DNA of 64,000 bases from an uncultured Caulobacterales bacterium (GCA_964654665.1 CAZZKV010000002.1:75119-139118); one strand, 5' to 3'. Numbered from the stretch's first letter, positions 2,403-24,550 are shown. Translations and numbers: made by a program. Notes: generated from the letters alone by a model not told the origin.

Positions 2403-2582
2403 CTCTCTCCTTATGTGGTCCTTTAACTGTGCTAATCCCGATGACCAGCAACACATTCAAACTGCCGAAAATGCAGGCCTATGTCGACAAATTTTAAGTT
2501 ATTGTTTTTATTGAATTTTTTAATTTTCTTCAAAAAGTATCAATTTTAAATTAGTATTTTTTACTATTTTATGTAATATATG

Positions 2583-2596
2583 CCAATAAATATTGG
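2583..2596. promoter_or_regulatory. 6-2-6 palindrome CCAATA-AA-TATTGG, 19 nt upstream of the pspF ATG
   Basis: Read directly in the AT-rich pspF/pspA divergent intergenic region. It is a possible autoregulatory or UAS site, with no other support. Confidence 0.2.
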
Positions 2597-2614
2597 TTTT
2601 TTATACTAAATATA

Positions 2615-9361: not shown

Positions 9362-10315
9362 ATGACTTACCTGATCACAGGCGCCGCTGGCTTTATCGGA
9401 ATGCATGTCGCCCGCGCGTTATTAGAACGAGGCGAGACCGTTATCGGGTTTGATAATCTCAATGCTTATTATGACATTACCTTCAAACAGGCACGTATCA
9501 ATCAGTTATCACCCTATGAGACTTTCACTTTTGTAAAAGGGGATATCGCTGATGAGGCCGCTTTAACCGCGCTTTTTGCCGCCCATAATTTTACCGCAGT
9601 CATCCATCTTGCGGCACAGGCAGGGGTTAGATATTCTTTAGATAACCCCCAGAGCTATATTCGCAGCAATATACACGGATTTGCAAATATACTTGAAGTA
9701 TGCCGTCACAATGGGGCTCCGCACCTTATTTATGCTAGCTCCAGTTCCGTTTATGGAGGCAATACACACACACCTTTTTCCGAAAACGATCGTGTGGATC
9801 ACCCTGTTAGTCTTTATGCGGCAACAAAAAAATCAAACGAATTAATGGCTCACAGCTATGCTCATCTTTACAATATGGCTGTAACGGGACTGCGGTTCTT
9901 TACTGTATATGGTCCATGGGGTCGCCCTGACATGGCCCCTTATATATTTACACAAAAAATTATGGCCGGAGAACCGATTACCGTTTTTAATCATGGTCAT
10001 CATGCCCGCGATTTCACATATATCGATGACATAACAGCCGGCGTATTGCTCTGCCTTCCGCATAAAGGCGATGTTTATCGCCTTTATAACATAGGCCGCG
10101 GGCAATCTGTGGAACTCATGGATTTTATTGGTTATATAGAGCAAGCTACTGGTCAAAAAGCGATTATCAATTTTGCCGACATGCAAGCTGGCGATGTTCA
10201 AAAAACCCATGCCGATATTTCTCAATTACAAATGGACCTCGGCTACAAACCCCAAATCAGCATTCAGCAAGGCGTTGAACGTTTTATCGATTGGTATAAA
10301 AGCCAGACAGTATAA
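9362..10315 (+). CDS. NAD-dependent nucleotide-sugar epimerase (UDP-glucuronate 4-epimerase-like, extended SDR)
   Basis: GAAGFIG Rossmann motif, YAATKKSNE (YxxxK), and overall GalE/CapI-like sequence. Confidence 0.8.
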   Translation: MTYLITGAAGFIGMHVARALLERGETVIGFDNLNAYYDITFKQARINQLSPYETFTFVKGDIADEAALTALFAAHNFTAVIHLAAQAGVRYSLDNPQSYIRSNIHGFANILEVCRHNGAPHLIYASSSSVYGGNTHTPFSENDRVDHPVSLYAATKKSNELMAHSYAHLYNMAVTGLRFFTVYGPWGRPDMAPYIFTQKIMAGEPITVFNHGHHARDFTYIDDITAGVLLCLPHKGDVYRLYNIGRGQSVELMDFIGYIEQATGQKAIINFADMQAGDVQKTHADISQLQMDLGYKPQISIQQGVERFIDWYKSQTV

Positions 10316-10316: not shown

Positions 10317-12062
10317 TTATTCGGCTACGCTTTTTTGTTCATCTAAATCCACCCGCGAGATAGCTGCACCGCATACCCGAAATACTTCGGTAAGCGAGGT
10401 GTGCCCAGCCCGGGCTTTTAATATTCCGTCTTCTAACAAGGTGATAAACCCTTGAGCCCGTGCCGTTTTCATCAGGCCCTGTAAGCTCGCACCCTTAAGA
10501 ATATCATCGGAAAGCGAATCATCAATACGGGCAACTTCAAATAAACCAATTCGGCCTTGATAGCCTGTATGACTACAATGCGCGCAACCCTTTGGAGCCC
10601 GCCAACTGGCCTTGCCCCGCAGTTGCGACTCAATGGGGCTCCCAGATTCAATCATAGCCCATATTTTATCTTCTCCGTCTGGGCTTTTGACGGACACAGA
10701 ACAATGCTCACATAATTTTCGGACAAGGCGCTGTGCAGCCAGTCCGCGCACAGCTGAAACAACCATATAGGGTTCAAGCCCAATATCGATGAGACGGGCA
10801 ACCGCCGCCAGAGCTGAATTTGTATGCAAAGTCGAGAGCACCAGATGCCCCGTAAGAGCCGCTTGGGCGGCGATAGTGGCTGTTTCTCCATCCCGAATTT
10901 CACCAACCATAATAATATCGGGATCTTGACGCAAAATTGCCCGCAATCCTTTCGCAAATGTATATCCGATATTCGCATTGGTTTGAATTTGGATAACCCC
11001 ATCCATGTCATATTCAACAGGATCTTCAATTGTGATAATTTTATGATCTCCGTCATTTAGCCCCTGTAAGCCGCGATAAAGCGTTGTCGATTTACCTGAC
11101 CCCGTAGGGCCCGTTACCAATATCACGCCATTCGGCAATGTGAAAAGATCTTCAAGTACTGCTTTGGCGTGGCCATCAAGACCAAGGCTTTGCAAGTCAG
11201 GGAGTTGTCCTTCTTTGCGCAGCAACCGTAGAACCAAACTCTCGCCCCATGATCCCGGCAATGAGGACACGCGCAAATCAATATCTTGGCCGGAAAATCG
11301 GATAGATTGCCGCCCATCCTGCGGCAGACGTCGTTCAGCAATATCCATACCTGACAGTAACTTTACCCGACTTACTACGGCATCAAACCGACCGCGACCT
11401 TCGGTCTGACGTGTGTGCAGCACACCATCAATACGATAACGCACCTGAAATTTAGTCTCGAAAGGTTCGATATGAATGTCAGAGGCATTATCTTTCAAGG
11501 CCGTCGAAAATACACGGTTAACAAAATCAATGACCGGGGCTTCTTCAGCTAATTCACGCAAGCGCTGGGCTTCGTCATCACTTCCATTATCCGTAGTCAG
11601 ACCATCGGTTATTGGAACGATTGCATTTTGTCCAGTTTCTATTGTTTGATTGCTAGCCAGATAATAACAGATCATAAGCTGGTTTTGATAGGCAATACGC
11701 TCAACCCGTTCCCGAATTTCAGGATCCAATATATTTTGTGCTGTCACGCATAGACGTCCCGTTTCATCCATCCAAACCAAACATTCCCGAGCTAATAACC
11801 AATCATGCGTAACCCCAAAGGCCTTCATAGCCTGTTCGAAAGCCTCAACATTGTTTGGAAAATCGGGTGGATTAATTATATCGAGCTGTAATTGCTCCGA
11901 TAAAACATGAAGCAGATCATCCTCGGCAATCGCGCCAATTCGTAAAAGAGCTTGCCCAATGAGGCCACCGACCTCATCTTGCAAACGGAGCGCTTGTGCC
12001 AAATCCGTCTCTGACACCAATTGGCGCGCGCGTAACATATCTCCAAGACGCTGATAACGCAT
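10317..12062 (-). CDS. gspE: type II secretion system ATPase GspE
   Basis: Walker A GPTGSGKSTT, Asp/His boxes, tetracysteine CEHC...CAHC, and an N-terminal T2SSE_N/MshEN-like domain. ATG is at 12062 (the track starts at GTG 12065). Confidence 0.92.
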   Translation of the reverse strand: MRYQRLGDMLRARQLVSETDLAQALRLQDEVGGLIGQALLRIGAIAEDDLLHVLSEQLQLDIINPPDFPNNVEAFEQAMKAFGVTHDWLLARECLVWMDETGRLCVTAQNILDPEIRERVERIAYQNQLMICYYLASNQTIETGQNAIVPITDGLTTDNGSDDEAQRLRELAEEAPVIDFVNRVFSTALKDNASDIHIEPFETKFQVRYRIDGVLHTRQTEGRGRFDAVVSRVKLLSGMDIAERRLPQDGRQSIRFSGQDIDLRVSSLPGSWGESLVLRLLRKEGQLPDLQSLGLDGHAKAVLEDLFTLPNGVILVTGPTGSGKSTTLYRGLQGLNDGDHKIITIEDPVEYDMDGVIQIQTNANIGYTFAKGLRAILRQDPDIIMVGEIRDGETATIAAQAALTGHLVLSTLHTNSALAAVARLIDIGLEPYMVVSAVRGLAAQRLVRKLCEHCSVSVKSPDGEDKIWAMIESGSPIESQLRGKASWRAPKGCAHCSHTGYQGRIGLFEVARIDDSLSDDILKGASLQGLMKTARAQGFITLLEDGILKARAGHTSLTEVFRVCGAAISRVDLDEQKSVAE

Positions 12063-12196
12063 CACATTAAACCGATGAAAACAGGGTAAGTCATGAAAAG
12101 CTTATAGGGGGCAAGCCGCAAAATTCCAATGAGTTTTCATTCATCTGGGATAGGTAATAAGAGCTCCCCCTATTTTTCAAAATAAGCTCTTTTCGT

Positions 12197-12222
12197 AATA
12201 AAAAGGCGGCCTAAGGCCGCCT
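12197..12222 (-). terminator. rho-independent terminator downstream of secreted-protein copy A
   Basis: On the - strand: GGCGGCC-TTA-GGCCGCC hairpin followed by TTTTTAT. Confidence 0.75.
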
Positions 12223-12268: not shown

Positions 12269-13717
12269 TTAAAAAGGTCCCAAAACAGGTACTCTTCTTA
12301 GACTAAAATTATCGCCATCACGTATCGGCTCTGGTGAGTCAAGATTATCAACATTTGCACCTTCACCAAATGGAGCGACATTACCGCCGGCTGATGCGAT
12401 CAAACGGTCAACATCAAGACGGTTATTTGTCTGGAATGACAACAGAATATCTGCAGAGTCATAACCCGGATTTAGATCTTCAAGCTCAACCCGTGACCGA
12501 ATACGAGCATTACCCGAAGCATCCCCGGTGATTGTACCCGTAGCCACTGTATTATTAGCCGAGTTTCTATACTCAACCGTATAAATTACAGGAACGCCCG
12601 GCGTTAGGCCGGTAATCCGGTAAACAGAGTTTACAGCTGCGCCCGCACCGCGGTTCCAGTCAAAGAAACCAAATGTTGCGCCTTCACGCTGCAAGCCGTC
12701 CAAAGCACCGCCTGTACCGTCTTCAAAAGCAATCAGGTTCGGATTACCAAAGAAACAGCGTGGGTCGCTAACGGAAACAGTTGTCGCATTAATAGACACA
12801 ACACCCCCTTCGTCAGTACCAACAGGCGTAATCGTAATATTATCCGGTATACCATCCGTTAAAGTGAATAGACCGCCTGCAACATTAGAGTTGTAAACGA
12901 AACGATCGGATGTTGGCGACAATCGTGTCAACGGAATACCGCCAACAGCAACGCCTGCAATACCTGTGGCGTCATCAAAGTCTACATTGAACTGCACACG
13001 GGCAATATCACCCGGAACAAACGGTGTGCCTGTAATATCTGTTGATGTCGTACCATCAACCGTAACATTAATTGATCCCAAAACAGGATCATTCACACTG
13101 TTGTAATCATCCAGAAGAATAACGGTATCAGAGATATTTTCGTCCGAAGTAACATCGAACTGCTTGCCATCTTCACACGAAATCAAACCGTCATCCGTGC
13201 TGGCACCGTTCACGTCATTCTCGATGAATGTCGTTGTACCAGTTAACGCCGCCGTAACAGTAATAGATGATCCCATTGTCGGGCATCCTGTAATCGCGAG
13301 CGGAAGATCAAAACCAATAAGGTTATCAGGGTTCACATTGTCAATAGAGACAAGGAATGTCGCCGTTGATGAACCGACACCGCCGCCTGATTGTAAAGAG
13401 GCTGATGACGCCGGTGTTCCGTTAGCAACATCGGGCGTGATCGCGCCGCCTGTCAAACCCGCCTGGAATGAAATTCCATCAGGGAGCGTAACAACAATAT
13501 CGAGGTTACCACCAGCTGGGAAATTACCGCCATTTGTGAGAGCCAGATCAAATTGGAAATTACCTGTTTGCGGATTATTGGCTAAATCAACTTCAGTGGC
13601 AAAAACAAGTCCGCCCGGACCTGCTGGAGTTACCACATTTTCAATTTCGAGAGCGCTCGCGCTGCCCGCTGTAAGCGCAACCAAGGAAGCGGCTGCGAAG
13701 AGTTTTTTGAGTGTCAT
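12269..13717 (-). CDS. secreted acidic Gly/Thr/Asn/Asp-rich protein, copy A (unknown family, putative T2SS substrate or surface protein)
   Basis: Signal peptide MTLKKLFAAASLVALTAGSASA/LEIEN. GAGGAAG SD before ATG 13717 (the track start 13729 is TTG). It has its own terminator and lies inside the gsp cluster. Confidence 0.85.
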   Translation of the reverse strand: MTLKKLFAAASLVALTAGSASALEIENVVTPAGPGGLVFATEVDLANNPQTGNFQFDLALTNGGNFPAGGNLDIVVTLPDGISFQAGLTGGAITPDVANGTPASSASLQSGGGVGSSTATFLVSIDNVNPDNLIGFDLPLAITGCPTMGSSITVTAALTGTTTFIENDVNGASTDDGLISCEDGKQFDVTSDENISDTVILLDDYNSVNDPVLGSINVTVDGTTSTDITGTPFVPGDIARVQFNVDFDDATGIAGVAVGGIPLTRLSPTSDRFVYNSNVAGGLFTLTDGIPDNITITPVGTDEGGVVSINATTVSVSDPRCFFGNPNLIAFEDGTGGALDGLQREGATFGFFDWNRGAGAAVNSVYRITGLTPGVPVIYTVEYRNSANNTVATGTITGDASGNARIRSRVELEDLNPGYDSADILLSFQTNNRLDVDRLIASAGGNVAPFGEGANVDNLDSPEPIRDGDNFSLRRVPVLGPF

Positions 13718-13750
13718 GTTCTTCCTCAATAGTTAGTTTCAATGAATTTT
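12308..13750. repeat. tandem duplication unit A (about 1.44 kb), partner at +1714 bp
   Basis: The sense translation and two antisense shadow ORFs are identical between copies. My spot checks of the DNA match. I found one substitution (12325 T vs 14039 G). Confidence 0.9.
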
Positions 13751-13954
13751 AGTAAAAATTACTTATTAGTGTAAATTAATATACTGCTAATCATAACACT
13801 CGCCAGTGGTCAAGTCTTTCACACTCTTAGCGCCCAATATACTCGCTTAAATTGCATTATTATATTTTTTCTCTAAATTAATCTATAGTTTTAGAATTCA
13901 AAAGTTTCATACAATACTTTAAAAACAAATACGCTCAACATATTTGCTATGCAC

Positions 13955-13982
13955 ATAAAAAAAGGCGGCCAAAAGACCGCCT
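13955..13982 (-). terminator. rho-independent terminator downstream of secreted-protein copy B
   Basis: On the - strand: AGGCGG(TC)...(GC)CCGCCT hairpin followed by a T7 run. Confidence 0.65.
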
Positions 13983-14003
13983 CAATATAATTTGTTGACT
14001 AGC

Positions 14004-15431
14004 TTATGTAGGGCCACCAACATTATCGCCATCACGTAGCGGCTCTGGTGAGTCAAGATTATCAACATTTGCACCTTCACCAAATGGAGCGACATTACCG
14101 CCGGCTGATGCGATCAAACGGTCAACATCAAGACGGTTATTTGTCTGGAATGACAACAGAATATCTGCAGAGTCATAACCCGGATTTAGATCTTCAAGCT
14201 CAACCCGTGACCGAATACGAGCATTACCCGAAGCATCCCCGGTGATTGTACCCGTAGCCACTGTATTATTAGCCGAGTTTCTATACTCAACCGTATAAAT
14301 TACAGGAACGCCCGGCGTTAGGCCGGTAATCCGGTAAACAGAGTTTACAGCTGCGCCCGCACCGCGGTTCCAGTCAAAGAAACCAAATGTTGCGCCTTCA
14401 CGCTGCAAGCCGTCCAAAGCACCGCCTGTACCGTCTTCAAAAGCAATCAGGTTCGGATTACCAAAGAAACAGCGTGGGTCGCTAACGGAAACAGTTGTCG
14501 CATTAATAGACACAACACCCCCTTCGTCAGTACCAACAGGCGTAATCGTAATATTATCCGGTATACCATCCGTTAAAGTGAATAGACCGCCTGCAACATT
14601 AGAGTTGTAAACGAAACGATCGGATGTTGGCGACAATCGTGTCAACGGAATACCGCCAACAGCAACGCCTGCAATACCTGTGGCGTCATCAAAGTCTACA
14701 TTGAACTGCACACGGGCAATATCACCCGGAACAAACGGTGTGCCTGTAATATCTGTTGATGTCGTACCATCAACCGTAACATTAATTGATCCCAAAACAG
14801 GATCATTCACACTGTTGTAATCATCCAGAAGAATAACGGTATCAGAGATATTTTCGTCCGAAGTAACATCGAACTGCTTGCCATCTTCACACGAAATCAA
14901 ACCGTCATCCGTGCTGGCACCGTTCACGTCATTCTCGATGAATGTCGTTGTACCAGTTAACGCCGCCGTAACAGTAATAGATGATCCCATTGTCGGGCAT
15001 CCTGTAATCGCGAGCGGAAGATCAAAACCAATAAGGTTATCAGGGTTCACATTGTCAATAGAGACAAGGAATGTCGCCGTTGATGAACCGACACCGCCGC
15101 CTGATTGTAAAGAGGCTGATGACGCCGGTGTTCCGTTAGCAACATCGGGCGTGATCGCGCCGCCTGTCAAACCCGCCTGGAATGAAATTCCATCAGGGAG
15201 CGTAACAACAATATCGAGGTTACCACCAGCTGGGAAATTACCGCCATTTGTGAGAGCCAGATCAAATTGGAAATTACCTGTTTGCGGATTATTGGCTAAA
15301 TCAACTTCAGTGGCAAAAACAAGTCCGCCCGGACCTGCTGGAGTTACCACATTTTCAATTTCGAGAGCGCTCGCGCTGCCCGCTGTAAGCGCAACCAAGG
15401 AAGCGGCTGCGAAGAGTTTTTTGAGTGTCAT
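14004..15431 (-). CDS. secreted acidic Gly/Thr/Asn/Asp-rich protein, copy B
   Basis: Identical to copy A through ...NLDSPEP, then a different tail (LRDGDNVGGPT vs IRDGDNFSLRRVPVLGPF). Same SD and start context. Confidence 0.85.
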   Translation of the reverse strand: MTLKKLFAAASLVALTAGSASALEIENVVTPAGPGGLVFATEVDLANNPQTGNFQFDLALTNGGNFPAGGNLDIVVTLPDGISFQAGLTGGAITPDVANGTPASSASLQSGGGVGSSTATFLVSIDNVNPDNLIGFDLPLAITGCPTMGSSITVTAALTGTTTFIENDVNGASTDDGLISCEDGKQFDVTSDENISDTVILLDDYNSVNDPVLGSINVTVDGTTSTDITGTPFVPGDIARVQFNVDFDDATGIAGVAVGGIPLTRLSPTSDRFVYNSNVAGGLFTLTDGIPDNITITPVGTDEGGVVSINATTVSVSDPRCFFGNPNLIAFEDGTGGALDGLQREGATFGFFDWNRGAGAAVNSVYRITGLTPGVPVIYTVEYRNSANNTVATGTITGDASGNARIRSRVELEDLNPGYDSADILLSFQTNNRLDVDRLIASAGGNVAPFGEGANVDNLDSPEPLRDGDNVGGPT

Positions 15432-15464
15432 GTTCTTCCTCAATAGTTAGTTTATATAGAGCGT
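14022..15464. repeat. tandem duplication unit B
   Basis: See unit A. Identity ends 33 nt upstream of the ATG and 13 or 6 codons before the respective stops. Confidence 0.9.
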
Positions 15465-15739
15465 GGAAAAACCACACCCGTCCCTTTGGGTCAAGGCTTT
15501 ATTGAGTCGGCATGTTCCGATACCCTTTTGGCCCTGTATTGCGTATAGAAAGTCATATCTGCCTAGTCAAGCATTACAATGTTAAAACCACACTGTAATC
15601 TTATCTAGCCCCGCCTAACTTCCGCTACTATCCGTTCCGTGCCCTCTTGGGCTTAATAAATCCCTAACACCCCCGTTAAAAGGTCATTTTTTGCTTATAT
15701 TCAGCGCTGTTGCAAAAACATCACAGTTTTTACAAAATT

Positions 15740-16213
15740 TCACAACTCCCCAATAACTGGCCGTATGGCTGTCCATCCCAGGGCTTTGATGTGAAATCGA
15801 TCCGTTTGTCGAAACGGCGTTGTAACCACGACCTCTACGCTATATATCGACACGGTAAATCGCCCCTCCCCTTCATCAACATCACGGGCTATTTGAGCCG
15901 GTTGTAGGGGACGAGCCTGCCACTGAATCCGATACTGACCTTGTATGAATTCGCCTTGAAGATTTTGATCTATATTTTGAGCGGCAATCAAATTAACAAC
16001 ATTTTCCCGGATTGCGATACGGTCACTAGCCCGTTCAAACCCTGTAATCGTGCGCATAAACTGTCCCTGTAAGTGCAATAAAGGCAACATAGCTGCCGCC
16101 AGAATAGCCATTGCTACCATTGCCTCTAGAACCGAAAATCCCTGACTCTTTACGCCGCGCCCGTTCCGCCGTCGTTTTTTCAGGCCAATCTGTATAAAGC
16201 CTTCAAGTGTCAC
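15740..16213 (-). CDS. minor pseudopilin (GspI-like by size and by elimination)
   Basis: Prepilin cleavage/methylation motif KSQG/FSVLEAMVAMAILAAAML. The GTG start overlaps the gspD stop (GTGA). Confidence 0.6.
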   Translation of the reverse strand: MTLEGFIQIGLKKRRRNGRGVKSQGFSVLEAMVAMAILAAAMLPLLHLQGQFMRTITGFERASDRIAIRENVVNLIAAQNIDQNLQGEFIQGQYRIQWQARPLQPAQIARDVDEGEGRFTVSIYSVEVVVTTPFRQTDRFHIKALGWTAIRPVIGEL

Positions 16214-18483
16214 GACCCATTCCGGCGTAAATTTGAGCCTAATTTTTGCTCACTTGGCTGGGCCCGCGGCAATAACGTTATCAAAGGGTCAGCTTCCGTG
16301 AGCGCTTGCTCAACACGATTGCGTAAAAGATTGACAAATTGATTTTTATCTTCCTGTCCGCGCAGAACATAGGGCGTTATAAGAATAATCAATTCTGTTT
16401 TATCGCGTGAAATCGCATTTCTCGCAAACGCTTGCCCTACAAAGGGTAAATCCTTGAGAAACGGCACACCTTCGTCATCAAGCACTTGATTATCCTGCAT
16501 TAATCCGCCCAAAACCGCCGTTTCGCCGTCTTCCAGTGTCAGCTGTGTCGTCACGGTTCTATTTGAAATTGTCGGTGTTCCAAGAGAGGACCCGCCCGTA
16601 TCAACGGTTGCGGAAACCTCGACTGAAATATCCAAGTCAATACGATCACGGCTAAAGACAATGGGAGACAGCGATACGATTTGGCCGGTTTTACGATAAT
16701 CAATTTGCTGCAAAATATCGGTTTCCCCGCCGCCATTCTGATTGCTCGCTGCCCGCTGAGACGTAATAATCGGCACATCGGTCCCGACTTGTATATCCGC
16801 CGTCCCACCAGATCTAGCAGTTAGAATAGGCGTCGAAAGCACCCGAATTTGCCTATTATCGGCAAAAGCATTCAGCGTTGCGTCAATATTACCTGTTACA
16901 AGCCCAACCGTAAGCCCGTTCCCGCCAATACCAAGACCATCTGTATCAAATGTCCCGCGCACACGCTCATCCCCTAAATCGTCCAAACTTAATTCAACGC
17001 CGATACTGGTTGAATCATTGAGCGTGACCTCTGCAATTTGCAACTCAATCAAAACTTCAGGTGCTGGCGTGTCAAGCTGGCGCAGCAGGCGCGTGTAACG
17101 TTCATTATCAGTTTGGTCGCCCGAAAAGATAATTCGATTGCCTAAAGTATCGACAGTAAAAATGTCTCCGCCCAAATTGGCGTTGGCAAATCCGCTCGTT
17201 TGCCCCCCAATCGCATTACCCGCGCCACCGCCGCGCCCGGAACTGCTTGACCCACGCTGATCGCGTTGTCGTTGATTGGATAAAGCGCGATTAGCAATTT
17301 CGGCAATCAATTCCGCATCAATATTTCTAACCTGATAAACAAAAATCTGGCTTTCATTGACGCCATCTGCCGGGCGGTCCAAATTCTGAATCCAATTATT
17401 CACCCTCTCATTAGCTTCATTTGATTTTGAGAAAATAAACACGTCATTAGAAAAAGCCGTTGGCATTACAAAAATAGTCCGGCTTAAATTCGGATCACTA
17501 GATACCATCCACCCTTCAACACTCAAAGCATTCGATAAAGCCTCGGAAAACTCTTCTGCGCGCCAATATTTTGGCCGATATCTTAAGACCTGACTGCCCG
17601 CAAATTGCAATTCATCCAATTCACGGATAATTTGCACAGCCTTATCAACTTCTTCTGGCAACCCCGACAAAGATACGTAATTAAACCGCGGGCTGGATTT
17701 AATTGTCAGCTTATCAGAATTACGTCCGAAAGCCTGTTGTAAAAACTCCAACATGGAATTCGCATCAACGGCCTGTAATTCGACAAATTGAACCACAGGC
17801 TGCAAAGCATCAGGCGTACCGAGGCGGGCGCGGGATTTAATAAAACGCGGAATACGCGATTTAAGGGCCTTATCTTCAATAACAAGATATTTATCGTCCT
17901 CAACAAAAACCCGTACGCCATATTCTTCCAGCGTTAAAGAAATAAGCTCCAAAAATTCACGCGAGGACATTTCGCCGGAAGAATTCAACCGGATCATTTC
18001 TGTACGGTTCGCAATATTCGGTCCCGTTGCATAAGGTACTTGCAACATTTCGGCAAATACGGTTTCAATAAAAACCGACAGTGGAAGCGGATTAACTTGG
18101 GCTGACACGCGGCGCGTTTTACTGGCTGGCCCACGTTTTAAATCAACATCACCTAAACCTTCTGGACGATCAGAAATGACAGGAACGCGGCCAATCAGCG
18201 AAATCGTTCCGCTTGACGCTTCCTTAGCAAGAGGCCGGCCATCAGCATCCGTCGCACCGACCACCCCTTGGTAAAAAGGACTCGTTGACACATACCCCGT
18301 TTTAGATGGGCGTATGACTTGATCTCCAAGACGTTTGCCAAAAGCAATCTCCTTTGACGCACTATTTTTAGCCGAGTTTTTCTGATCCAAAGTTTGGCAC
18401 CCGCCCAACAGCGCTGTCATCGCTGCACTGACAATAATATATCGGAAACCTTGAGAGTTTGCCTTATATAAAAATGGCTTCAT
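16210..18483 (-). CDS. gspD: type II secretion system secretin GspD, with lipoprotein signal (liposecretin-like)
   Basis: C-terminal secretin domain (GVPFLKDLPFVGQAFARN...TELIILITPYVLR) and N0-N3-like repeats. The N-terminal lipobox is ALLGG/C. Confidence 0.9.
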   Translation of the reverse strand: MKPFLYKANSQGFRYIIVSAAMTALLGGCQTLDQKNSAKNSASKEIAFGKRLGDQVIRPSKTGYVSTSPFYQGVVGATDADGRPLAKEASSGTISLIGRVPVISDRPEGLGDVDLKRGPASKTRRVSAQVNPLPLSVFIETVFAEMLQVPYATGPNIANRTEMIRLNSSGEMSSREFLELISLTLEEYGVRVFVEDDKYLVIEDKALKSRIPRFIKSRARLGTPDALQPVVQFVELQAVDANSMLEFLQQAFGRNSDKLTIKSSPRFNYVSLSGLPEEVDKAVQIIRELDELQFAGSQVLRYRPKYWRAEEFSEALSNALSVEGWMVSSDPNLSRTIFVMPTAFSNDVFIFSKSNEANERVNNWIQNLDRPADGVNESQIFVYQVRNIDAELIAEIANRALSNQRQRDQRGSSSSGRGGGAGNAIGGQTSGFANANLGGDIFTVDTLGNRIIFSGDQTDNERYTRLLRQLDTPAPEVLIELQIAEVTLNDSTSIGVELSLDDLGDERVRGTFDTDGLGIGGNGLTVGLVTGNIDATLNAFADNRQIRVLSTPILTARSGGTADIQVGTDVPIITSQRAASNQNGGGETDILQQIDYRKTGQIVSLSPIVFSRDRIDLDISVEVSATVDTGGSSLGTPTISNRTVTTQLTLEDGETAVLGGLMQDNQVLDDEGVPFLKDLPFVGQAFARNAISRDKTELIILITPYVLRGQEDKNQFVNLLRNRVEQALTEADPLITLLPRAQPSEQKLGSNLRRNGS

Positions 18484-18487: not shown

Positions 18488-19018
18488 TTAGTTCCGCTTC
18501 TTTAAAGTCTGTGTATTTAATTCGGATGTAACGCGGTCCAAATTTACCTCTTGGGCTTGATTTGTATCGCTAATTGAAAAACCTTGTTCCTTGCCGTCAA
18601 AAACAGCTAACACCTTGTTAGTTTTAACATTTTTTATCAACCAACCCGTATCCAGCTGATCCCCAGCGCCCATAAGAACAATCTTTCCATCTGCTTGTTT
18701 TAGTAAAACTTTTGATACACCATTAACCGTTGTATAACCACTTCGTAGGGGAAAATTCGGCACCCCCTCCCGCGCGGCACTCGCAGCCAAATTCCTATCG
18801 CTCGGCGTGACCCGTTTCGCAACCTTATTCACTGGGAAAATTCGGGCGGATTCAATTATTTGTTGAGCCGCAATAATTTCAGCCGCATTATCGCTGGTTC
18901 GTACATCCGGCCATGTCACAGACTTAGCTCCAGCGTGAACAGGCTGTGTGCTGGATAATACCCACCCGGCCAAACCGGAAAGGGCCATCAAAATGAGTGA
19001 AAATAAGCGCAATCCCAT
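18488..19018 (-). CDS. gspC: GspC-like (HR/PilP-like domain) inner-membrane T2SS protein
   Basis: N-terminal TM, a short beta-rich C-terminal domain (VLLKQADGKIVLMGAGDQLDTGWLIKNVKTNKVLAVFDG), and a position directly upstream of gspD. Only 176 aa, with no PDZ domain. Confidence 0.45.
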   Translation of the reverse strand: MGLRLFSLILMALSGLAGWVLSSTQPVHAGAKSVTWPDVRTSDNAAEIIAAQQIIESARIFPVNKVAKRVTPSDRNLAASAAREGVPNFPLRSGYTTVNGVSKVLLKQADGKIVLMGAGDQLDTGWLIKNVKTNKVLAVFDGKEQGFSISDTNQAQEVNLDRVTSELNTQTLKKRN

Positions 19019-19617
19019 TATTGCTCCCCGCCTGTTACCGAGGCATTATCAATACTAACAGGAATAATTCCCCGCACAGTCAACATGGATTGGCGATTGG
19101 CTTGGACAGAAAACTGTACATCGCGCACAATAATCATCCGATTATCCGCGGCCAGATCCGTTAGGACGGAAGCGGCGTTATTACCTCCGCGTATTAATCC
19201 GTTAAATTCAAAATATTGCACATCAAGGCCATCGATTGTTTCAGTCGCGGCTTCAACACGCGGTCGCCAATTTTCCATTTTGTTCTTTGTGGCAACGGCG
19301 CGAAGTTTTTGCTGCAAATTAGCCGCTATTATCCCGGGGGTTCGGCCCTTCCATTGTCGCTGTTCTGCCAACCCTCGAGCCGTTTTGCTTTGCGCAAGGC
19401 GGGAGGTCCAACTGTCATCTGCCCGTATATCTTCCAATTGGGCAAGCTCGAGAGCCGCCGCCTGATGGCTATGTTTTAAACTTGCCGTATAGTCGGATAA
19501 TTTCATCAATGCGAACCACGCCGTAATAGAAACAATTGCGATCAGGCCGAACCCTTCAATAGGCGAAAATTGCTCGTCAAGTTGGCGGCGCAACTGATCC
19601 AATAACCCGCTCATCAT
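19018..19617 (-). CDS. gspM: T2SS inner-membrane protein GspM-like
   Basis: About 200 aa with a single N-terminal TM and a ferredoxin-like C-terminal pattern. It follows the gspL-like gene with a 4-nt overlap. Confidence 0.5.
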   Translation of the reverse strand: MMSGLLDQLRRQLDEQFSPIEGFGLIAIVSITAWFALMKLSDYTASLKHSHQAAALELAQLEDIRADDSWTSRLAQSKTARGLAEQRQWKGRTPGIIAANLQQKLRAVATKNKMENWRPRVEAATETIDGLDVQYFEFNGLIRGGNNAASVLTDLAADNRMIIVRDVQFSVQANRQSMLTVRGIIPVSIDNASVTGGEQ

Positions 19618-20666
19618 TGCCCTGGCCTCGCCGTTATTTGGTCAGCTTCAAGATTGCCGGCCACGCCGACTAACACGGCCTTTACAATAACAGCATTTCC
19701 CTGTCCAAAATTTACTGTCACATCTTGTAAAGCCGGGCTTTTTTCAAGAGCCGCTACAAGTTCAGGTTCTGCAGCATCAGGCACGCCAACCATACGAATA
19801 GTCATATCGCCTTCGCGAATTTGAACCGATCTCATTTCAATATCTTTATCCCCAAAGACCTGCGCCGTCGCCGCTATGGCTTTTATCGCATGAGCCTCGT
19901 CCCCCATGGCTGCCAGCCGTTTTGCTGCCTGTAAATTCCCGAGGGCTTGACGCCGCTGTGCCAAAACCTGGGATGCTGTATCAGAAATCGTATTAATTTT
20001 TGCCTGAATTTGCGCTATAGCCATTTTATGATGAATAATTTGGGCGCTAAAAAACACAGTACTGCATAGCGCTAAAATACCAACCCCCATCATCAAACGC
20101 GACGGTGAAAGTCCGCCTCCGGAACCACCTTGATAACTAAAAATTGGCAGGTTTTTCCGAAAAGGCACGGTAACAGCTTCGGTTAAAGGAAAAGCGGATA
20201 ATTTATCCGCACTCGTAACGGCCTGTAAAAATATTTGCCAATCACGCGCTGCAGGCATTTGGGGCCACCAACGACTTGCGATTAAAACGCCGTTTTCCCA
20301 CACTTGACCTTCAGTGCCGTCAAGGCAATTCACCAATCTGGCCCCATCTGCCTCCATAGGCTCACGCGCAATTGTTTCGGGCATATATCGTGCAGTTTCA
20401 CTCAAAGCTGCAAAATTCCAAATCCCTACGCTTTCACCTGTTTTATCTTTATCCAGATAAATACCCTCTTCCCCATTGGCAGATTCTTTAACCGCCTTAA
20501 ACCGAGCAGCCGCCAAACCTTGGCGACCCGGGGCTTTGAGCGGCACACGGCGAAACGCACAGCGCGCCCGCGGCACAATATAAAGCGTTTGACCCATAGC
20601 ACCACTTTGCAATACGTGGTTTTGGCCCTCTTTATCGTGCGTTATCAGTTGTGGGCGAAAGAACAT
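19614..20666 (-). CDS. gspL: T2SS inner-membrane protein GspL-like
   Basis: Bitopic layout: an N-terminal cytoplasmic domain of about 190 aa, one TM (LMMGVGILALCSTVFFSAQII), and a periplasmic domain. It sits between gspK and gspM. The start may instead be ATG 20597. Confidence 0.5.
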   Translation of the reverse strand: MFFRPQLITHDKEGQNHVLQSGAMGQTLYIVPRARCAFRRVPLKAPGRQGLAAARFKAVKESANGEEGIYLDKDKTGESVGIWNFAALSETARYMPETIAREPMEADGARLVNCLDGTEGQVWENGVLIASRWWPQMPAARDWQIFLQAVTSADKLSAFPLTEAVTVPFRKNLPIFSYQGGSGGGLSPSRLMMGVGILALCSTVFFSAQIIHHKMAIAQIQAKINTISDTASQVLAQRRQALGNLQAAKRLAAMGDEAHAIKAIAATAQVFGDKDIEMRSVQIREGDMTIRMVGVPDAAEPELVAALEKSPALQDVTVNFGQGNAVIVKAVLVGVAGNLEADQITARPGQ

Positions 20667-21630
20667 AATTGATTACTTTATCACCTCCTAAGCTATTGTC
20701 GAAATTAATATTTTCGGGCTCTTCTAACATAGTCCGCTCATAAACAAAGCGCCGTCTTACAGGGGACCCTAGATCATAGATAAGCCGTTGTATCTCGACA
20801 GCACGCTGATGATATCGTCCGTTTTCATCCCGATATGTCATTGTCAAACGCGCCTCATTGGACGGAAAAGGTTCGTTGACCAAAGCACCACTAAAATCAC
20901 TTTGTTGCGCGCGGGTTTTTGCCCCGGTTAACTGTAAATGGTCAAGAATCGGGGGATAGGCCGCATTCACAAAAAGGGATGATCCCGAATTATTCATCGA
21001 AATCATATCTTCCAACCGATGACGGTCTATTTTTTCAACCGCCACGTCCCAATCCATTACATTGCGTAATTCATCTAAATGCCGTAGCGGGGCGTTAGCG
21101 GGCGGTGGTAAATTTTTTAATCGGTATTCGGGAGCTTCAGCTCCCTGAAATTGTCTTTGAGAGTCACCATCAATATAATCGAGCAATCGCGCCGTAAGGC
21201 GCCGTGATTGGGTGCCTGAAAACCCTTCGGCTCGTAGAAATTTATCAATCAGTTCTTTAGACAAACCATTAATAGGAATAAATCCGCGCGAATCGCGTAA
21301 ATTAATCTGAACATCCCCTGTAAAAGTTGAAACATGACGCACATCCCCATTGTGCCCCCACAGCCTGTCCGTTTTTTGTCCATTTTTATAAAGATTAAAC
21401 CCGCCATTAGAAGGCTCTGCTGTAACCATTGCCCAAACGGCTTCGGCCTCGGCACTCGCAAATGCAATGTCAACATCCGCACTGTTTTGCATAGCACGTA
21501 TGACAGTTTGCATTTTGCTCATCCGAGACATAGCAATGCTGCCGGCTATCGATAAAATCAGGATAACAACCAATACATAGGGCAAAACAAAACCGCCCGC
21601 ATTATGCGTAAGCTTATAAGTCAATATCAC
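20632..21630 (-). CDS. gspK: T2SS minor pseudopilin GspK
   Basis: About 330 aa. Hydrophobic N-terminal segment without the conserved Glu5 (GGFVLPYVLVVILILSIAGS). Has the LDELRNV motif typical of GspK. Confidence 0.7.
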   Translation of the reverse strand: MILTYKLTHNAGGFVLPYVLVVILILSIAGSIAMSRMSKMQTVIRAMQNSADVDIAFASAEAEAVWAMVTAEPSNGGFNLYKNGQKTDRLWGHNGDVRHVSTFTGDVQINLRDSRGFIPINGLSKELIDKFLRAEGFSGTQSRRLTARLLDYIDGDSQRQFQGAEAPEYRLKNLPPPANAPLRHLDELRNVMDWDVAVEKIDRHRLEDMISMNNSGSSLFVNAAYPPILDHLQLTGAKTRAQQSDFSGALVNEPFPSNEARLTMTYRDENGRYHQRAVEIQRLIYDLGSPVRRRFVYERTMLEEPENINFDNSLGGDKVINYVLSPTTDNAR

Positions 21631-22291
21631 TCACATCCCTATAAGGCGGACGCGTGGCACCGTCTGTGGCTGCAATAATACTACGCTGAACGTCTTCACC
21701 AAAAATTCCATCGATCCAAGATATTTTAACGGCCAAAGGTAGATGCGGCATTTGCATTAACTCTACATCGTTAAAAAATCCGGGTGATGGGATTTCGCGG
21801 GGCGGCCATTGTTTATACCAGATTTTATCTTCCCCGAGATATTCCATTTTTGCATTGCGCCCTAATATAGGAAAAACATCAAGTACAAGGTCTGTACTTG
21901 TCAAACGCAGAGCGGTATTGTCATGTCCTAGCTCAACTAATTCTAAGGTAAACGCTTCAAATTTTGCTCGGTTTTTTGTTGGCACCCCAACAGACCGCCC
22001 CTTCAAAATACGGTTATCGCCCGTAAAAATATCGTCTTGTGTTCCCAGAATAATATTTTCTGGCCAATGGGTTTTCGCGCCGGCAATAAGGCTGCGCAAC
22101 ATTTTGCGCCCCGCGCCATCATCTAAAAGAGTTTCACTAATCTCCAAAGCCTTATCAGAAACCCGAAGCAATGCACTACTTGATTGAAACAAGGCAAGCG
22201 ACGCCAAAGACATAATGACAAGGGCAATCAAAGTTTCCAATAATGAGAACCCGTCTTGCGACTGAATATATGTTTGGCTCTGTATTCGCAT
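21614..22291 (-). CDS. gspJ: T2SS minor pseudopilin GspJ-like
   Basis: Prepilin motif QDG/FSLLETLIALVIMSL. 225 aa, directly upstream of gspK. Confidence 0.6.
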   Translation of the reverse strand: MRIQSQTYIQSQDGFSLLETLIALVIMSLASLALFQSSSALLRVSDKALEISETLLDDGAGRKMLRSLIAGAKTHWPENIILGTQDDIFTGDNRILKGRSVGVPTKNRAKFEAFTLELVELGHDNTALRLTSTDLVLDVFPILGRNAKMEYLGEDKIWYKQWPPREIPSPGFFNDVELMQMPHLPLAVKISWIDGIFGEDVQRSIIAATDGATRPPYRDVSDIDL

Positions 22292-22411
22292 TTTTATTCT
22301 TGCGTCTCCGTTCTCATATCAATCTCTTTAACCTGATGCTTATCAATTGGAAATGTGATTTCTTGTATTATGACTGTTCAATGCGCAGAAGATAACTTAA
22401 ACATCTGTCAT

Positions 22412-23617: not shown

Positions 23618-23626
23618 GACACCCTT

Positions 23627-24079
23627 ATGGAAAAGAAAATTAAAAACCAGCAACGCACCCATAAAGATGCTGGCTATTCCTTGCTTGAGATTATGGTTGT
23701 GCTCGTCATCATGGGGCTTTTAGCAACATTAGTTGCCCCCCGCCTTTTTGGACAAGTTGATAAATCAAGAGTGACCACTGCGAAAGCGCAAGCAAAATCT
23801 TTACGCCTTGCTCTGGATAGTTACCGCCTTGATGTCGGGCGCTATCCGACGCAACAAGAAGGTTTAACAGCCCTTATAACCGCGCCTCAAGGGAATAACG
23901 GTAGCTGGTTCGGCCCTTATCTTGACGGCGAAATGCCGCGCGACCCCTGGGGTAATAGCTATATATATGAAGCCCCTGCGACAAATGAAAATGGCCAAGT
24001 GCTTAGCCCGAAAGTCATTTCACTTGGCGCTGATAATACTGTTGGCGGAAACGGAAATGACGCCGATATCTCCTCATAA
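23627..24079 (+). CDS. gspG: T2SS major pseudopilin GspG
   Basis: KDAG/YSLLEIMVVLVIMGLLATLVAPR plus the GspG-specific RYPTQQEGLTALI...PRDPWGNSYIY. Confidence 0.93.
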   Translation: MEKKIKNQQRTHKDAGYSLLEIMVVLVIMGLLATLVAPRLFGQVDKSRVTTAKAQAKSLRLALDSYRLDVGRYPTQQEGLTALITAPQGNNGSWFGPYLDGEMPRDPWGNSYIYEAPATNENGQVLSPKVISLGADNTVGGNGNDADISS

Positions 24080-24491: not shown

Positions 24492-24550
24492 CCGATAAAG
24501 CGCCTATTTCTCTCTTTCATCTAGCGGGCTTATACGCCAAAAAGGTGAGT

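What the first reader, a model, noticed from the sequence alone, without database searches (positions are those of the whole stretch)
12269..15464. Near-perfect 1.44-kb tandem duplication of an unrecognised secreted-protein gene, inserted inside the T2SS cluster
Two genes (482 and 475 aa after start correction) sit between gspE and the gspD operon.
- Identity: they match from 33 nt upstream of the ATG to a few codons before the stop. I found one substitution (12325 T / 14039 G, Ile/Leu).
- Divergence: the C-terminal tails then differ completely (…IRDGDNFSLRRVPVLGPF vs …LRDGDNVGGPT).
- Expression signals: each copy has its own strong terminator. Each has a different AT-rich upstream region, so the promoters are not part of the repeat.
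- Protein: it has a clean Sec signal peptide, is acidic and G/T/N/D/V-rich, and matches no family I recognise.
- Interpretation: position suggests a dedicated, probably abundant, T2SS cargo or surface-layer-like protein. The near-identity implies a very recent duplication or ongoing gene conversion.
Basis: partly seen in the sequence, partly recalled or inferred. Interest (0 to 1): 0.7.

Follow-up and report, generated by a model that had tools for sequence, protein, structure and literature searches.

The report
Twin surface-protein genes in T2SS cluster
Two almost identical neighbouring genes encode an uncharacterised, non-enzymatic, four-domain secreted protein that always sits beside its own specialised type II secretion machine in marine stalked bacteria, and it is most likely a cell-surface coat or matrix protein whose two copies are kept alike by gene conversion.

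Summary
The repeat is real. Window 12308-13739 equals 14022-15453 (1432 nt) with one mismatch (12325 T / 14039 G). It gives two minus-strand genes of 482 and 475 aa.

The gene ("X") is not an insertion. In 14 of 16 family loci examined, X lies directly next to gspE of a divergent T2SS cluster. This holds for a very distant member whose cluster is rearranged.

X has no Pfam, NCBIfam or PDB sequence match. Its family has 208 representatives at 50% identity, all unannotated. AlphaFold with 81 sequences gave pLDDT 90: about four beta-sandwich domains plus a disordered acidic tail. Foldseek found only Ig-like arrays of surface adhesins and no enzyme.

The closest known architecture is an S-layer gene beside a dedicated T2SS (Aeromonas VapA/Sps, NpdA, Slr4). 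X is not homologous to NpdA.

Tandem pairs recur in Litorimonas (94% aa) and Fretibacter (74% aa). In the window, the 3' flanks are homologous but diverged and the upstream regions are unalignable. This favours an older duplication homogenised by gene conversion.

Verdict: probable dedicated T2SS cargo and surface structural protein. It is a new family within a known kind. S-layer status is unproven.

The parts
14004..15431 (-). Gene X copy B (475 aa). It is the first copy transcribed, next to the gspI-like gene. Its tail ends ...DGDNVGGPT.
   Evidence: ORF. The identical protein P0001 is in NCBI. It keeps the ancestral promoter and leader.
12269..13717 (-). Gene X copy A (482 aa), the copy next to gspE. 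Its tail ends ...DGDNFSLRRVPVLGPF, which is 7 extra, mostly hydrophobic codons.
   Evidence: ORF. Protein P0010 is in NCBI. Tail alignment.
12308..13739 (.). Homogenised repeat unit, copy A side (1432 nt). It runs from 22 nt upstream of the ATG to codon 470.
   Evidence: one mismatch, at 12325.
14022..15453 (.). Homogenised repeat unit, copy B side.
   Evidence: mismatch at 14039; family D1.
12204..12222 (-). Intrinsic-terminator-like hairpin after copy A (8 bp, 7 G-C, then a T-run).
   Evidence: It is homologous to the copy B terminator.
13962..13983 (-). Intrinsic-terminator-like hairpin after copy B (9 bp, then T7).
15542..15570 (-). Candidate promoter of copy B: TTGACT (15570-15565), 17 nt, TATACG (15547-15542). 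The -35 CTTGAC is invariant in 12 orthologous loci.
   Evidence: Alignment A8; coordinates. It implies a leader of about 105 nt. The transcription start is inferred, not mapped.
15459..15479 (-). Leader hairpin GGGTGTGG-TTTTT-CCACGCTC, 28-48 nt upstream of the copy B ATG and outside the repeat.
   Evidence: A hairpin sits at the same place in 12 of 12 orthologous leaders. Four of six stem positions show changes on both sides, and no pair is broken.
13746..13775 (-). Sigma-70-like site TTTACA-18-TAAAAT in the A+T-rich spacer. It is a candidate separate promoter for copy A.
   Evidence: 10 of 12 matches. Consensus match only.
10317..12065 (-). gspE ATPase with an N-terminal MshEN-type c-di-GMP-binding domain.
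   Evidence: Pfam T2SSE 7e-126. NF053729 scores 43.8 bits against a cutoff of 38, at residues 6-58.
15740..16213 (-). gspI-like minor pseudopilin.
   Evidence: N_methyl. Weak XpsI and GspI hits.
16210..18483 (-). gspD secretin with a probable lipoprotein signal (…ALLGGC).
   Evidence: Secretin and Secretin_N. TIGR02517 5e-78, below the equivalog cutoff. The lipobox was read from the translation.
18488..20666 (-). Three conserved cluster genes of 176, 199 and 350 aa. The 199-aa product is weakly GspM-like. The other two have no family; by position they could be GspC/N-like and GspL-like.
   Evidence: All three are conserved in relatives.
20632..22291 (-). gspK and a gspJ-like pseudopilin gene.
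   Evidence: T2SSK_1st and N_methyl.
22355..24491 (+). Divergent operon gspF, gspG and gspH-like. The gspH-like ORF 23922-24491 probably starts near 24080.
24467..25573 (+). Family-2 glycosyltransferase co-oriented with gspFGH.
   Evidence: Relatives carry GT2 and/or sulfotransferase genes inside the cluster.
9362..10315 (+). NAD-dependent sugar epimerase/dehydratase, convergent with gspE.
   Evidence: The same neighbour is present in L017.

Best explanation
Gene X encodes the dedicated cargo of a specialised, divergent type II secretion system found in marine prosthecate Caulobacterales.

**Proposed route (all inferred).**
- The preprotein crosses the inner membrane by Sec. Its signal peptide is MTLKKLFAAASLVALTAGSASA|LE.
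- It folds in the periplasm into about four Ig-like beta-sandwich domains.
- The adjacent Gsp machine pushes it through a lipoprotein secretin.
- The GspE ATPase carries a c-di-GMP-binding MshEN domain, so export may be gated by c-di-GMP.

**Proposed role (inferred).**
- Outside the cell X acts as a non-enzymatic structural surface protein. An S-layer-like coat is the most likely form, and an adhesive or biofilm-matrix protein is the alternative.
- The conserved C-terminal domain is the likely cell-surface or glycan anchor. The variable N-terminal domains would be exposed.

**The two genes.** They descend from an older whole-gene tandem duplication. Gene conversion has homogenised the coding bodies, presumably under selection for dosage. 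The promoters and the C-terminal tails have stayed different.

**Shown here:** the repeat, the synteny, the fold class, the absence of any known family, and the diverged flanks.

**Inferred:** secretion by this T2SS, surface location, lattice formation, dosage selection and c-di-GMP control.
For: **Linkage to the T2SS.**
- X lies between the gspI-like gene and gspE in the window and in L001, L003, L006, L008, L010, L011, L012, L013, L017 and L138.
- X stays next to gspE when the cluster is split (L009, L014).
- X also stays next to gspE when the cluster is reordered, in a member found at only E = 1.5e-31 (L140).
- L003 and L013 carry a second T2SS a few kb away; in L003 it has GspC and an N0-type GspD. 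The X-linked system is therefore an extra, specialised one.

**Gene organisation.**
- X is monocistronic, with its own terminator.
- The first copy has a promoter and leader conserved across 12 loci.

**Protein.**
- Fold: pLDDT 90.1 and pTM 0.80, all-beta.
- The best PDB matches are Ig-like arrays of surface adhesins: AgI/II 4tsh_B at 7e-11 and PrgB 8beg_A at 2e-8. Pilins and macroglobulin domains follow. No catalytic fold appears.
- Mature protein pI is 4.05.
- The C-terminal domain is the most conserved domain (2.11 bits against 1.5-1.7). It also occurs as repeats on secreted subtilases.

**Context.**
- Sugar-modifying genes co-cluster.
- The MshEN domain scores above its curated cutoff.

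**Precedents.** S-layer genes beside T2SS clusters: VapA/Sps (PMC4483657), NpdA (PMC10765051) and Slr4 (PMC7821379).

**Gene conversion.**
- The body is 1431/1432 identical.
- The 3' flank is alignable but diverged, with a 21-nt indel.
- The upstream regions are at random-level identity.
- Tandem pairs in L009 and L001 show mosaic identity of 77-99% and 36-87%.
Against: - There is no experimental datum for any family member. All are 'hypothetical' or unnamed.
- Codon bias of X is ordinary (Nc 50.6-52.1), so sequence gives no sign of extreme abundance.
- Foldseek TM-scores are low (0.27 or less). The match to the S-layer protein SbsB is weak (rank 47). The fold therefore indicates an Ig-like array, not an S-layer specifically.
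- A subfamily (L016, L139) sits at a valS locus with no T2SS within 10 kb.
- T2SS substrates carry no recognisable linear signal, so secretion cannot be predicted from sequence.
- The near-perfect identity may be partly an assembly effect, because the sole SNP is 17 nt from the repeat edge.
Confidence: 0.55

Rival explanations
1. The pair is a very recent tandem duplication that has simply not had time to diverge. No gene conversion is needed.
For: 1431 of 1432 nt are identical. Independent duplications could explain why paralogues within a genome are always closer than orthologues between genomes.
Against: - A recent duplication of the 1714-nt unit should also leave near-identical upstream regions, tails and terminators.
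- Instead the upstream regions are at random-level identity.
- The 3' flanks are recognisably homologous but diverged, with a 21-nt indel.
- A recent copy of only the 1432-nt body would have had to land in frame with a ready-made tail and a look-alike terminator.
- The Litorimonas pair shows mosaic tracts of 77-99% identity, which is typical of conversion.
Confidence: 0.15
2. This is an assembly artefact. Either there is really one copy, or the two copies are real but their interior differences were collapsed by the assembler.
For: - The only mismatch is 17 nt from the repeat edge. That pattern is expected when one unitig is threaded twice.
- Only one assembly holds the sequence.
Against: - Each copy has unique junctions on both sides: a different upstream region, a different tail and a different terminator.
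- Tandem pairs of the same gene exist in the Fretibacter rubidus genome CP163423, whose announcement (PMC11556079) reports Nanopore sequencing, and in a Litorimonas MAG.
- A false duplication is therefore unlikely. An overstated identity remains possible.
Confidence: 0.08
3. X is not cargo. It is a periplasmic or outer-membrane component of the secretion machine, such as a docking or pilotin-like accessory.
For: - X holds a fixed position inside the cluster across deep divergence.
- The cluster lacks a recognisable GspC, GspL or GspN.
Against: - X has its own promoter and terminator.
- X diverges faster than the core machine: 34-44% identity against 63-70% for GspE and 46-51% for GspD.
- X has duplicated in three lineages.
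- Stand-alone homologues exist far from any T2SS.
- The C-terminal domain recurs on subtilases.
- Three conserved unnamed genes already fill the GspC/L/M slots.
Confidence: 0.1
4. X is a conventional soluble T2SS exoprotein, such as a hydrolase or a substrate-binding protein for algal polysaccharides, rather than a structural coat.
For: - Most known T2SS substrates are enzymes (general knowledge).
- Relatives are macroalga-associated genera (titles listed).
- Foldseek lists weak matches to Bacteroides surface glycan-binding proteins (ranks 16, 20 and 26).
Against: - There is no catalytic domain in Pfam, NCBIfam or PDB searches.
- The model is only beta-sandwich domains.
- The glycan-binding-protein matches have probability 0.38 or less and TM about 0.1.
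Confidence: 0.12

Closest known systems
Aeromonas salmonicida/hydrophila A-layer protein VapA (AhsA) with the S-layer-specific T2SS (Sps/Aps), embedded in the O-antigen cluster (PMC4483657)
   Same: - A roughly 49-kDa Sec-dependent surface protein gene lies beside a complete extra set of T2SS genes (spsE, F, G, H, I, J, K, L and others).
- Sugar-biosynthesis genes are adjacent.
- The secretion system is considered dedicated to one protein.
   Different: - The host is a Gammaproteobacterium.
- Sequence homology between X and VapA could not be tested, because no VapA sequence was obtainable.
- The gene order differs.
- No tandem duplication is reported there.
- Lattice formation by X is unknown.
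NpdA S-layer protein of Paracidovorax/Delftia beside a 12-gene gsp cluster (PMC10765051)
   Same: - It is a 52-kDa mature protein with a Sec signal and no conserved domains.
- Its gene is linked to one of two gsp clusters in the genome.
   Different: - A profile-to-sequence comparison found no homology beyond the signal peptide.
- The hosts are Beta- and Gammaproteobacteria.
Slr4 S-layer and biofilm-matrix protein of Pseudoalteromonas tunicata, immediately downstream of a T2SS operon (PMC7821379)
   Same: - It is a marine family restricted to marine metagenomes.
- It was 'hypothetical' with no Pfam domain until studied.
- It is adjacent to a T2SS.
- It serves both as surface layer and as matrix component.
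   Different: - Slr4 is predicted to be a beta-helix like RsaA, whereas X is an array of Ig-like sandwiches.
- Slr4 is 59 kDa and gammaproteobacterial.
Hxc T2SS of Pseudomonas aeruginosa with liposecretin HxcQ and neighbour-encoded substrate LapA (recalled from my own knowledge; not checked against a paper here)
   Same: - It is a second, specialised T2SS with a lipoprotein secretin.
- It has one main substrate encoded next to it.
   Different: - LapA is an alkaline phosphatase under Pho control.
- X has no enzymatic fold.
- The lipobox here is inferred from sequence only.
Ig-like multi-domain surface adhesins of Gram-positive bacteria (AgI/II C-terminal region 4tsh, PrgB 8beg)
   Same: They are the best structural matches and share the tandem beta-sandwich architecture.
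   Different: - Sequence identity is 9-11% and TM is 0.27 or less.
- They are sortase-anchored in a different envelope.
- The resemblance is at fold-class level only.
Caulobacter crescentus RsaA S-layer with the RsaDEF type I system
   Same: The order is the same (Caulobacterales), and a surface coat gene is linked to its own secretion system.
   Different: - RsaA has no N-terminal signal peptide and uses a C-terminal T1SS signal (recalled from my own knowledge).
- RsaA was the beta-helical threading template for Slr4 (PMC7821379).
- X has a Sec signal and no HemolysinCabind hit.
- rsaADEF was reported absent from Caulobacterales families other than Caulobacteraceae (PMC12700997).

Membership tests
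Type II secretion system (Gsp) gene cluster | Core ATPase GspE, platform GspF, major pseudopilin GspG and secretin GspD | tested here: met
   Pfam hits: T2SSE 7e-126, T2SSF 2e-48, T2SSG 3e-33, Secretin 3e-39. The best NCBIfam models are gspE, gspF and gspD, all below their equivalog cutoffs, so this is a divergent subtype.
Type II secretion system (Gsp) gene cluster | Minor pseudopilins GspH, I, J, K and assembly proteins GspC, L, M | tested here: inconclusive
   GspK is recognised (T2SSK_1st), and there are H-, I- and J-like prepilins. The 199-aa product is only weakly GspM-like (E 1e-4 and 0.05). The 350-aa and 176-aa products have no family. No prepilin peptidase was identified among the window ORFs I scanned; relatives have one.
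S-layer protein with a dedicated T2SS (VapA, NpdA, Slr4 type) | Structural gene physically linked to a T2SS cluster, conserved across relatives | tested here: met
   14 of 16 family loci.
S-layer protein with a dedicated T2SS (VapA, NpdA, Slr4 type) | Sec-type N-terminal signal peptide | tested here: met
   MTLKKLFAAASLVALTAGSASA|LE has an n-region, h-region and AXA site, read. No signal-peptide predictor was available. The signal peptide is the most conserved segment of the family.
S-layer protein with a dedicated T2SS (VapA, NpdA, Slr4 type) | Self-assembly into a paracrystalline lattice on the outer membrane; among the most abundant cell proteins | not testable with these tools
   This needs TEM or cryo-ET and proteomics. 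Codon bias gives no hint of extreme expression.
S-layer protein with a dedicated T2SS (VapA, NpdA, Slr4 type) | A separate general T2SS elsewhere in the genome | tested here: inconclusive
   A second T2SS is present 3-5 kb away in relatives L003 and L013; in L003 it has GspC and an N0-type GspD. The rest of the window's genome is not available.
NpdA family | Sequence homology to WP_011797163 | tested here: not met
   hhalign of the 81-sequence profile against NpdA gave probability 3.6%, aligning the signal peptide only.
VapA/AhsA family | Sequence homology to VapA | not tested
   No VapA sequence could be obtained. A primer-based scan of metagenome contigs gave only chance hits.
Slr4 / RsaA-like beta-helical S-layer proteins | Beta-helical fold (RsaA-like) | tested here: not met
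   The model is made of beta-sandwich domains. RsaA is not among the listed Foldseek matches. Slr4 is described as beta-helical in PMC7821379.
RsaA-type T1SS S-layer | No N-terminal signal peptide; RTX/Ca-binding repeats; adjacent T1SS | tested here: not met
   X has a Sec signal, no HemolysinCabind hit, and its neighbours are Gsp genes.
MshEN-type c-di-GMP receptor ATPases | N-terminal MshEN domain with tandem RLGxxL...LxxxLxxQ motifs | tested here: met
   NF053729 scores 43.8 bits against a cutoff of 38, at residues 6-58 of GspE. The motifs RLGDMLRARQLVSETDLAQALRLQ and LIGQALLRIGAIAEDDLLHVLSEQ are visible. Binding itself was not tested.
Liposecretins (HxcQ type) | Lipoprotein signal peptide with a lipobox Cys on the secretin | tested here: inconclusive
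   The N-terminus reads ...IIVSAAMTALLGGC|QTLD and fits a lipobox pattern. No lipoprotein predictor was available.
Any curated protein family (Pfam-A, NCBIfam) or solved structure | Significant profile or sequence match | tested here: not met
   There were 0 Pfam families for X. Across 81 family members, only two Pfam families matched, each in a single member at chance-level E-values. NCBIfam gave only TasA at E 0.14. A PDB profile search found nothing better than E 0.34.

The most novel reading that the evidence does not exclude
X is the subunit of a so far unrecognised S-layer or surface-lattice family of marine prosthecate Caulobacterales. RsaA-type S-layer genes have been reported absent from these families.

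- X would be exported by its own c-di-GMP-gated T2SS through a liposecretin.
- It would be built from two isoforms, with a short GPT tail and an extended hydrophobic tail.
- The two genes have been kept almost identical by long-term concerted evolution.
- The same tail dimorphism in a Litorimonas MAG would then mean that the two-gene, two-tail state is functional and conserved, not a duplication accident.
Probability: 0.25. Interest if true: 0.65.

Novelty: new member of a known kind. Interest (0 to 1): 0.5.

Why it matters
- It gives a testable function to an unannotated family of about 200 sequence clusters, all from environmental or marine sources where a source is named. Named members come from genera reported on macroalgae and in seawater.
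- It adds a candidate alphaproteobacterial example to the recurring pairing of a surface-coat gene with a private T2SS. That pairing is documented only in Gamma- and Betaproteobacteria. RsaA-type S-layer genes were reported absent from Caulobacterales families outside Caulobacteraceae (PMC12700997).
- Fretibacter rubidus JCM 15585 is a cultured type strain with a complete genome and two paralogues, so experiments are feasible.
- The locus is a clean natural case of gene conversion with sharply defined tract borders. It keeps two differently promoted, differently tailed copies of one gene identical.

Tried and rejected
1. Pfam, NCBIfam and PDB sequence searches with X and with an 81-sequence profile found nothing. 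The only hit was TasA at E 0.14, which I rejected as noise.
2. The first AlphaFold run, with 10 sequences, was poor (pLDDT 57.6). I superseded it with the 81-sequence run.
The 10-sequence alignment worked.
4. A second word-indexed homologue search with the profile added no named relatives. Cluster look-ups gave only 'hypothetical protein', apart from one subtilase name.
5. I tried to obtain VapA by scanning metagenome contigs with a published vapA primer. It gave 120 chance matches, and none carried the reverse primer. Homology to VapA therefore stays untested.
6. Codon bias as a proxy for abundance showed X to be unremarkable.
7. For a globally structured 5' leader, RNAalifold on the MAFFT alignment predicted no pairs. 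MFE z-scores for the first-copy leaders ranged from -1.8 to +1.8. Only the small hairpin near the ribosome-binding site holds up.
8. I considered an outer-membrane beta-barrel because copy A ends in Phe. I rejected it because the model is soluble sandwich domains and most family members end in acidic ...GSE, DN or DD.
9. I considered a PEP-CTERM-like sorting signal because of the SPEP motif. I rejected it because no C-terminal transmembrane helix follows.
10. Rfam at gathering threshold found no known RNA family in the window.

Full report
**1. The observation**

At an offset of 1714 nt, window 12308-13739 is identical to 14022-15453 (1432 nt). The only exception is 12325 T versus 14039 G.

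Both genes lie on the minus strand.
- Copy B, 14004-15431, is 475 aa and is transcribed first.
- Copy A, 12269-13717, is 482 aa and lies next to gspE.

Identity begins 22 nt upstream of the ATG, covering the ribosome-binding site GAGGAAG. It ends at codon 470.

Each copy is followed by a G+C-rich hairpin and a T-run.

Tail A equals tail B plus a 21-nt insertion, and both end G-P-x-stop. The sequence downstream, including the two terminators, is still alignable. The upstream regions are not alignable.

**2. Duplication history**

A fresh duplication of the 1714-nt unit would also leave identical flanks. Here the body is 99.93% identical. The 3' flank is homologous but diverged, and the 5' flank is at random-level identity. 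That is the signature of an older whole-gene duplication whose coding bodies are being homogenised by gene conversion.

The same gene is tandemly paired in two other genera.
- A Litorimonas MAG (L009) has 94% aa identity, with mosaic nucleotide identity of 77-99%.
- Fretibacter rubidus (L001) has 74% aa identity, with mosaic nucleotide identity of 36-87%. Its genome announcement reports Nanopore sequencing (PMC11556079).

Paralogues within a genome are always closer than orthologues between genomes, which reach at most 48% for these lineages.

In L009 the gspE-proximal copy also carries a hydrophobic extension of eight residues between ...DN and GP-x (…DDDNSFLIFPPSGPL). The first copy there ends …DDDNGPT. 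This mirrors the window's …DGDNFSLRRVPVLGPF and …DGDNVGGPT. I cannot decide whether this reflects shared ancestry or convergence.

One caution applies. The only mismatch in the window lies 17 nt from the repeat edge, so a short-read assembler may have collapsed interior differences. A wholly false duplication is unlikely, because both junctions of both copies are unique.

**3. Genomic context**

The surrounding genes form a divergent T2SS.

| Gene | Window coordinates |
|---|---|
| gspE | 10317-12065 |
| gspI-like | 15740-16213 |
| gspD | 16210-18483 |
| three conserved genes (the middle one weakly GspM-like) | 18488-20666 |
| gspK | 20632-21630 |
| gspJ-like | 21614-22291 |
| gspF, gspG, gspH-like (divergent operon) | 22355-24491 |

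- All components score below NCBIfam equivalog cutoffs.
- The secretin begins with a lipobox-like …ALLGGC.
- GspE carries an MshEN c-di-GMP-binding domain that scores above its curated cutoff.
- A family-2 glycosyltransferase (GT2) gene and a sugar epimerase gene flank the cluster.
- Relatives add sulfotransferases, RmlA/RmlC or a GT4 gene.

**4. X is a resident of the cluster, not an insertion**

- In ten related loci X occupies the same slot between the gspI-like gene and gspE (L001, L003, L006, L008, L010-L013, L017, L138).
- In L009 and L014 the cluster is split and X stays with gspE-gspG-gspH.
- In L140 the family member is very distant (E = 1.5e-31). The cluster order is X-E-F-G-…-D, and X is still immediately upstream of gspE.
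- Only one subfamily is stand-alone (L016, L139, at a valS locus).
- L003 and L013 carry a second T2SS a few kb away. In L003 it has GspC and an N0-type GspD. The X-linked system is therefore an additional, specialised one.

**5. The protein**

- There is no Pfam, NCBIfam or PDB sequence match, either for X or for 81 family members.
- An exhaustive profile search found 208 representatives at 50% identity, 98 of them with E of 1e-30 or better. Most are 450-540 aa.
- Where sources give a name it is 'hypothetical protein'. Named taxa are Robiginitomaculum, Litorimonas, Fretibacter and uncultured Caulobacterales or Hyphomonadaceae.
- With the 81-sequence alignment, AlphaFold gave pLDDT 90.1 and pTM 0.80.
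  - The model is all-beta, with about four sandwich domains at roughly 24-165, 166-232, 233-328 and 329-445.
  - A low-confidence acidic tail follows.
- Foldseek against the PDB returned only Ig-like arrays: AgI/II, PrgB, Esp, pilins, integrin and macroglobulin domains. TM-scores were low and no enzyme appeared.
- The mature protein is 46-47 kDa with pI 4.05, one Lys and no His.
- Within the family the signal peptide is the most conserved segment (2.77 bits). The C-terminal domain comes next (2.11 bits), and the first three domains score 1.5-1.7.
- The C-terminal domain also occurs in four copies on secreted subtilases. This fits a modular anchoring or binding domain.

**6. Expression signals**

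- Upstream of the first copy, 12 orthologous loci share an invariant CTTGAC. A TATA-type hexamer follows about 17 nt later. In the window these are 15570-15565 and 15547-15542.
- This implies a leader of about 105 nt.
- A small hairpin 25-48 nt upstream of the ATG is present in all 12 leaders. Four of six stem positions changed on both sides, and no pair is broken.
- Whole-leader folding energies are not unusual, and RNAalifold found nothing on the MAFFT alignment.
- Copy A lacks this leader. It has an A+T-rich spacer with a sigma-70-like site at 13775-13746.
- Codon bias of X is average.

**7. Interpretation**

The best-supported reading is that X is the dedicated cargo of this specialised T2SS and acts as a non-enzymatic surface structural protein.

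The architecture has three published counterparts, each a different protein family beside a T2SS cluster:
- VapA with the Sps system inside the O-antigen cluster of Aeromonas (PMC4483657);
- NpdA (PMC10765051);
- Slr4, which is both S-layer and biofilm matrix (PMC7821379).

X is not homologous to NpdA, and it differs in predicted fold from the beta-helical Slr4. VapA could not be compared.

A survey of Caulobacterales found rsaA-type S-layer genes absent outside Caulobacteraceae (PMC12700997). An X-based coat would therefore be new for this group.

S-layer formation, surface retention, abundance, c-di-GMP control and dosage selection are all inferences.

**8. Rivals**

| Rival | Estimate |
|---|---|
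| Recent duplication without gene conversion | 0.15 |
| Assembly artefact | 0.08 |
| Machine component rather than cargo | 0.10 |
| Soluble enzyme or glycan binder | 0.12 |

Each is weighed in the rivals section.

**9. Verdict**

The feature is real and well defined. X belongs to a new, unannotated protein family within a known kind of system: a private T2SS with a neighbour-encoded surface cargo. The locus also shows concerted evolution of a tandem pair. Interest is moderate. The function is testable in the cultured strain Fretibacter rubidus JCM 15585.

Noticed in passing
window 15459-15570 (- strand); L001, L003, L006, L008-L014 and L017 upstream of X: The promoter and the roughly 105-nt leader of the first X copy are conserved at the DNA level across loci whose X proteins are only 34-48% identical to the window's. 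The -35 CTTGAC is invariant, and a TATA-type -10 follows after about 17 nt. A small hairpin near the ribosome-binding site has arm sequences that differ between lineages (TGTGG/CCACA, GTGCA/TGCAC, TGCGA/TCGCA, TGTGAA/TTCACA) but always pair. It could be an mRNA-stabilising or regulatory element, or an operator.
   Followed up: partly
window 12269-12310 and 14004-14024; L009 11380-11404 and 13030-13079: The same tail dimorphism occurs in two genomes. The first copy ends …DN(VG)GPT. The gspE-proximal copy has an extra hydrophobic segment of 7-8 residues (window) or 8 residues (L009) before GP[FL]. No other family representative inspected has such a tail. Whether this is shared ancestry with concerted evolution or convergence is unresolved.
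   Followed up: partly
window 11892-12050 (GspE residues 6-58): The T2SS ATPase carries an MshEN-type c-di-GMP-binding domain (NF053729, above its cutoff) with both RLGxxL…Q motifs. This suggests that secretion is gated by c-di-GMP.
   Followed up: partly
window 18390-18483 (N-terminus of the secretin): The secretin has a lipobox-like signal (…SAAMTALLGGC|QT). It may therefore be a self-piloting liposecretin, like HxcQ.
   Followed up: no
window 12325 / 14039: The only difference between the two copies lies 17 nt inside the repeat border. This pattern is expected if an assembler reused one collapsed unitig for both copies, so the true interior identity may be lower.
   Followed up: no
family alignment A3, residues 1-23 of X: The signal peptide (consensus MK[IL]K[SK]LLAAxSxVALTAGSAxAL) is the most conserved part of the whole family (2.77 bits per column, against 1.5-2.1 for the domains). 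That is unusual for Sec signals. It resembles signal peptides of abundant alphaproteobacterial outer-membrane proteins, a resemblance I recall from memory and did not test.
   Followed up: partly
P0135, P0147 (subtilases) and P0136: The conserved C-terminal domain of X (about residues 329-445) recurs on other extracellular proteins, in four matched stretches in each of these three. P0135 is a 1210-aa subtilisin-family protease. The domain is therefore a mobile module with no Pfam model.
   Followed up: partly
window 9362-10315 and 24467-26463; L003, L017, L138, L140: Sugar-modifying genes travel with the X/T2SS cluster: GT2, an epimerase and RmlA in the window; sulfotransferases, GT2, GT4 and RmlA/RmlC in relatives. 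In two loci a sulfotransferase sits between X and gspE. This hints at glycosylation or sulfation of X, or of the glycan it binds.
   Followed up: no
L016 10001-11482; L139 10001-11458: A subfamily of X (E about 1e-60 to 1e-68) sits alone at a conserved valS / DUF3137 / YhhN / Exo_endo_phos locus with no T2SS gene within the flanks held for these loci (about 10 kb; L139 ends about 200 nt after the gene). Its upstream non-coding region is long, up to about 1.1 kb.
   Followed up: no
L003 14967-21482; L013 16997-21319: A second T2SS lies only 3-5 kb from the X-linked cluster in two relatives. In L003 it has GspC and an N0-type GspD. These organisms therefore keep two T2SS side by side.
   Followed up: no
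window 13164-13736 and 14878-15450 (+ strand): A 190-aa antisense ORF lies inside each copy of X. It is probably a by-product of the gene's composition and is duplicated along with it. I did not examine it further.
   Followed up: no
window 569-3655 and 27764-30956: The neighbourhood is ordinary: a pspC/pspA/pspF-like phage-shock module on one side, and a PHA module on the other (PhaC, a phasin, a TetR-family regulator and an alpha/beta hydrolase). Rfam found no known RNA family in the whole window.
   Followed up: no
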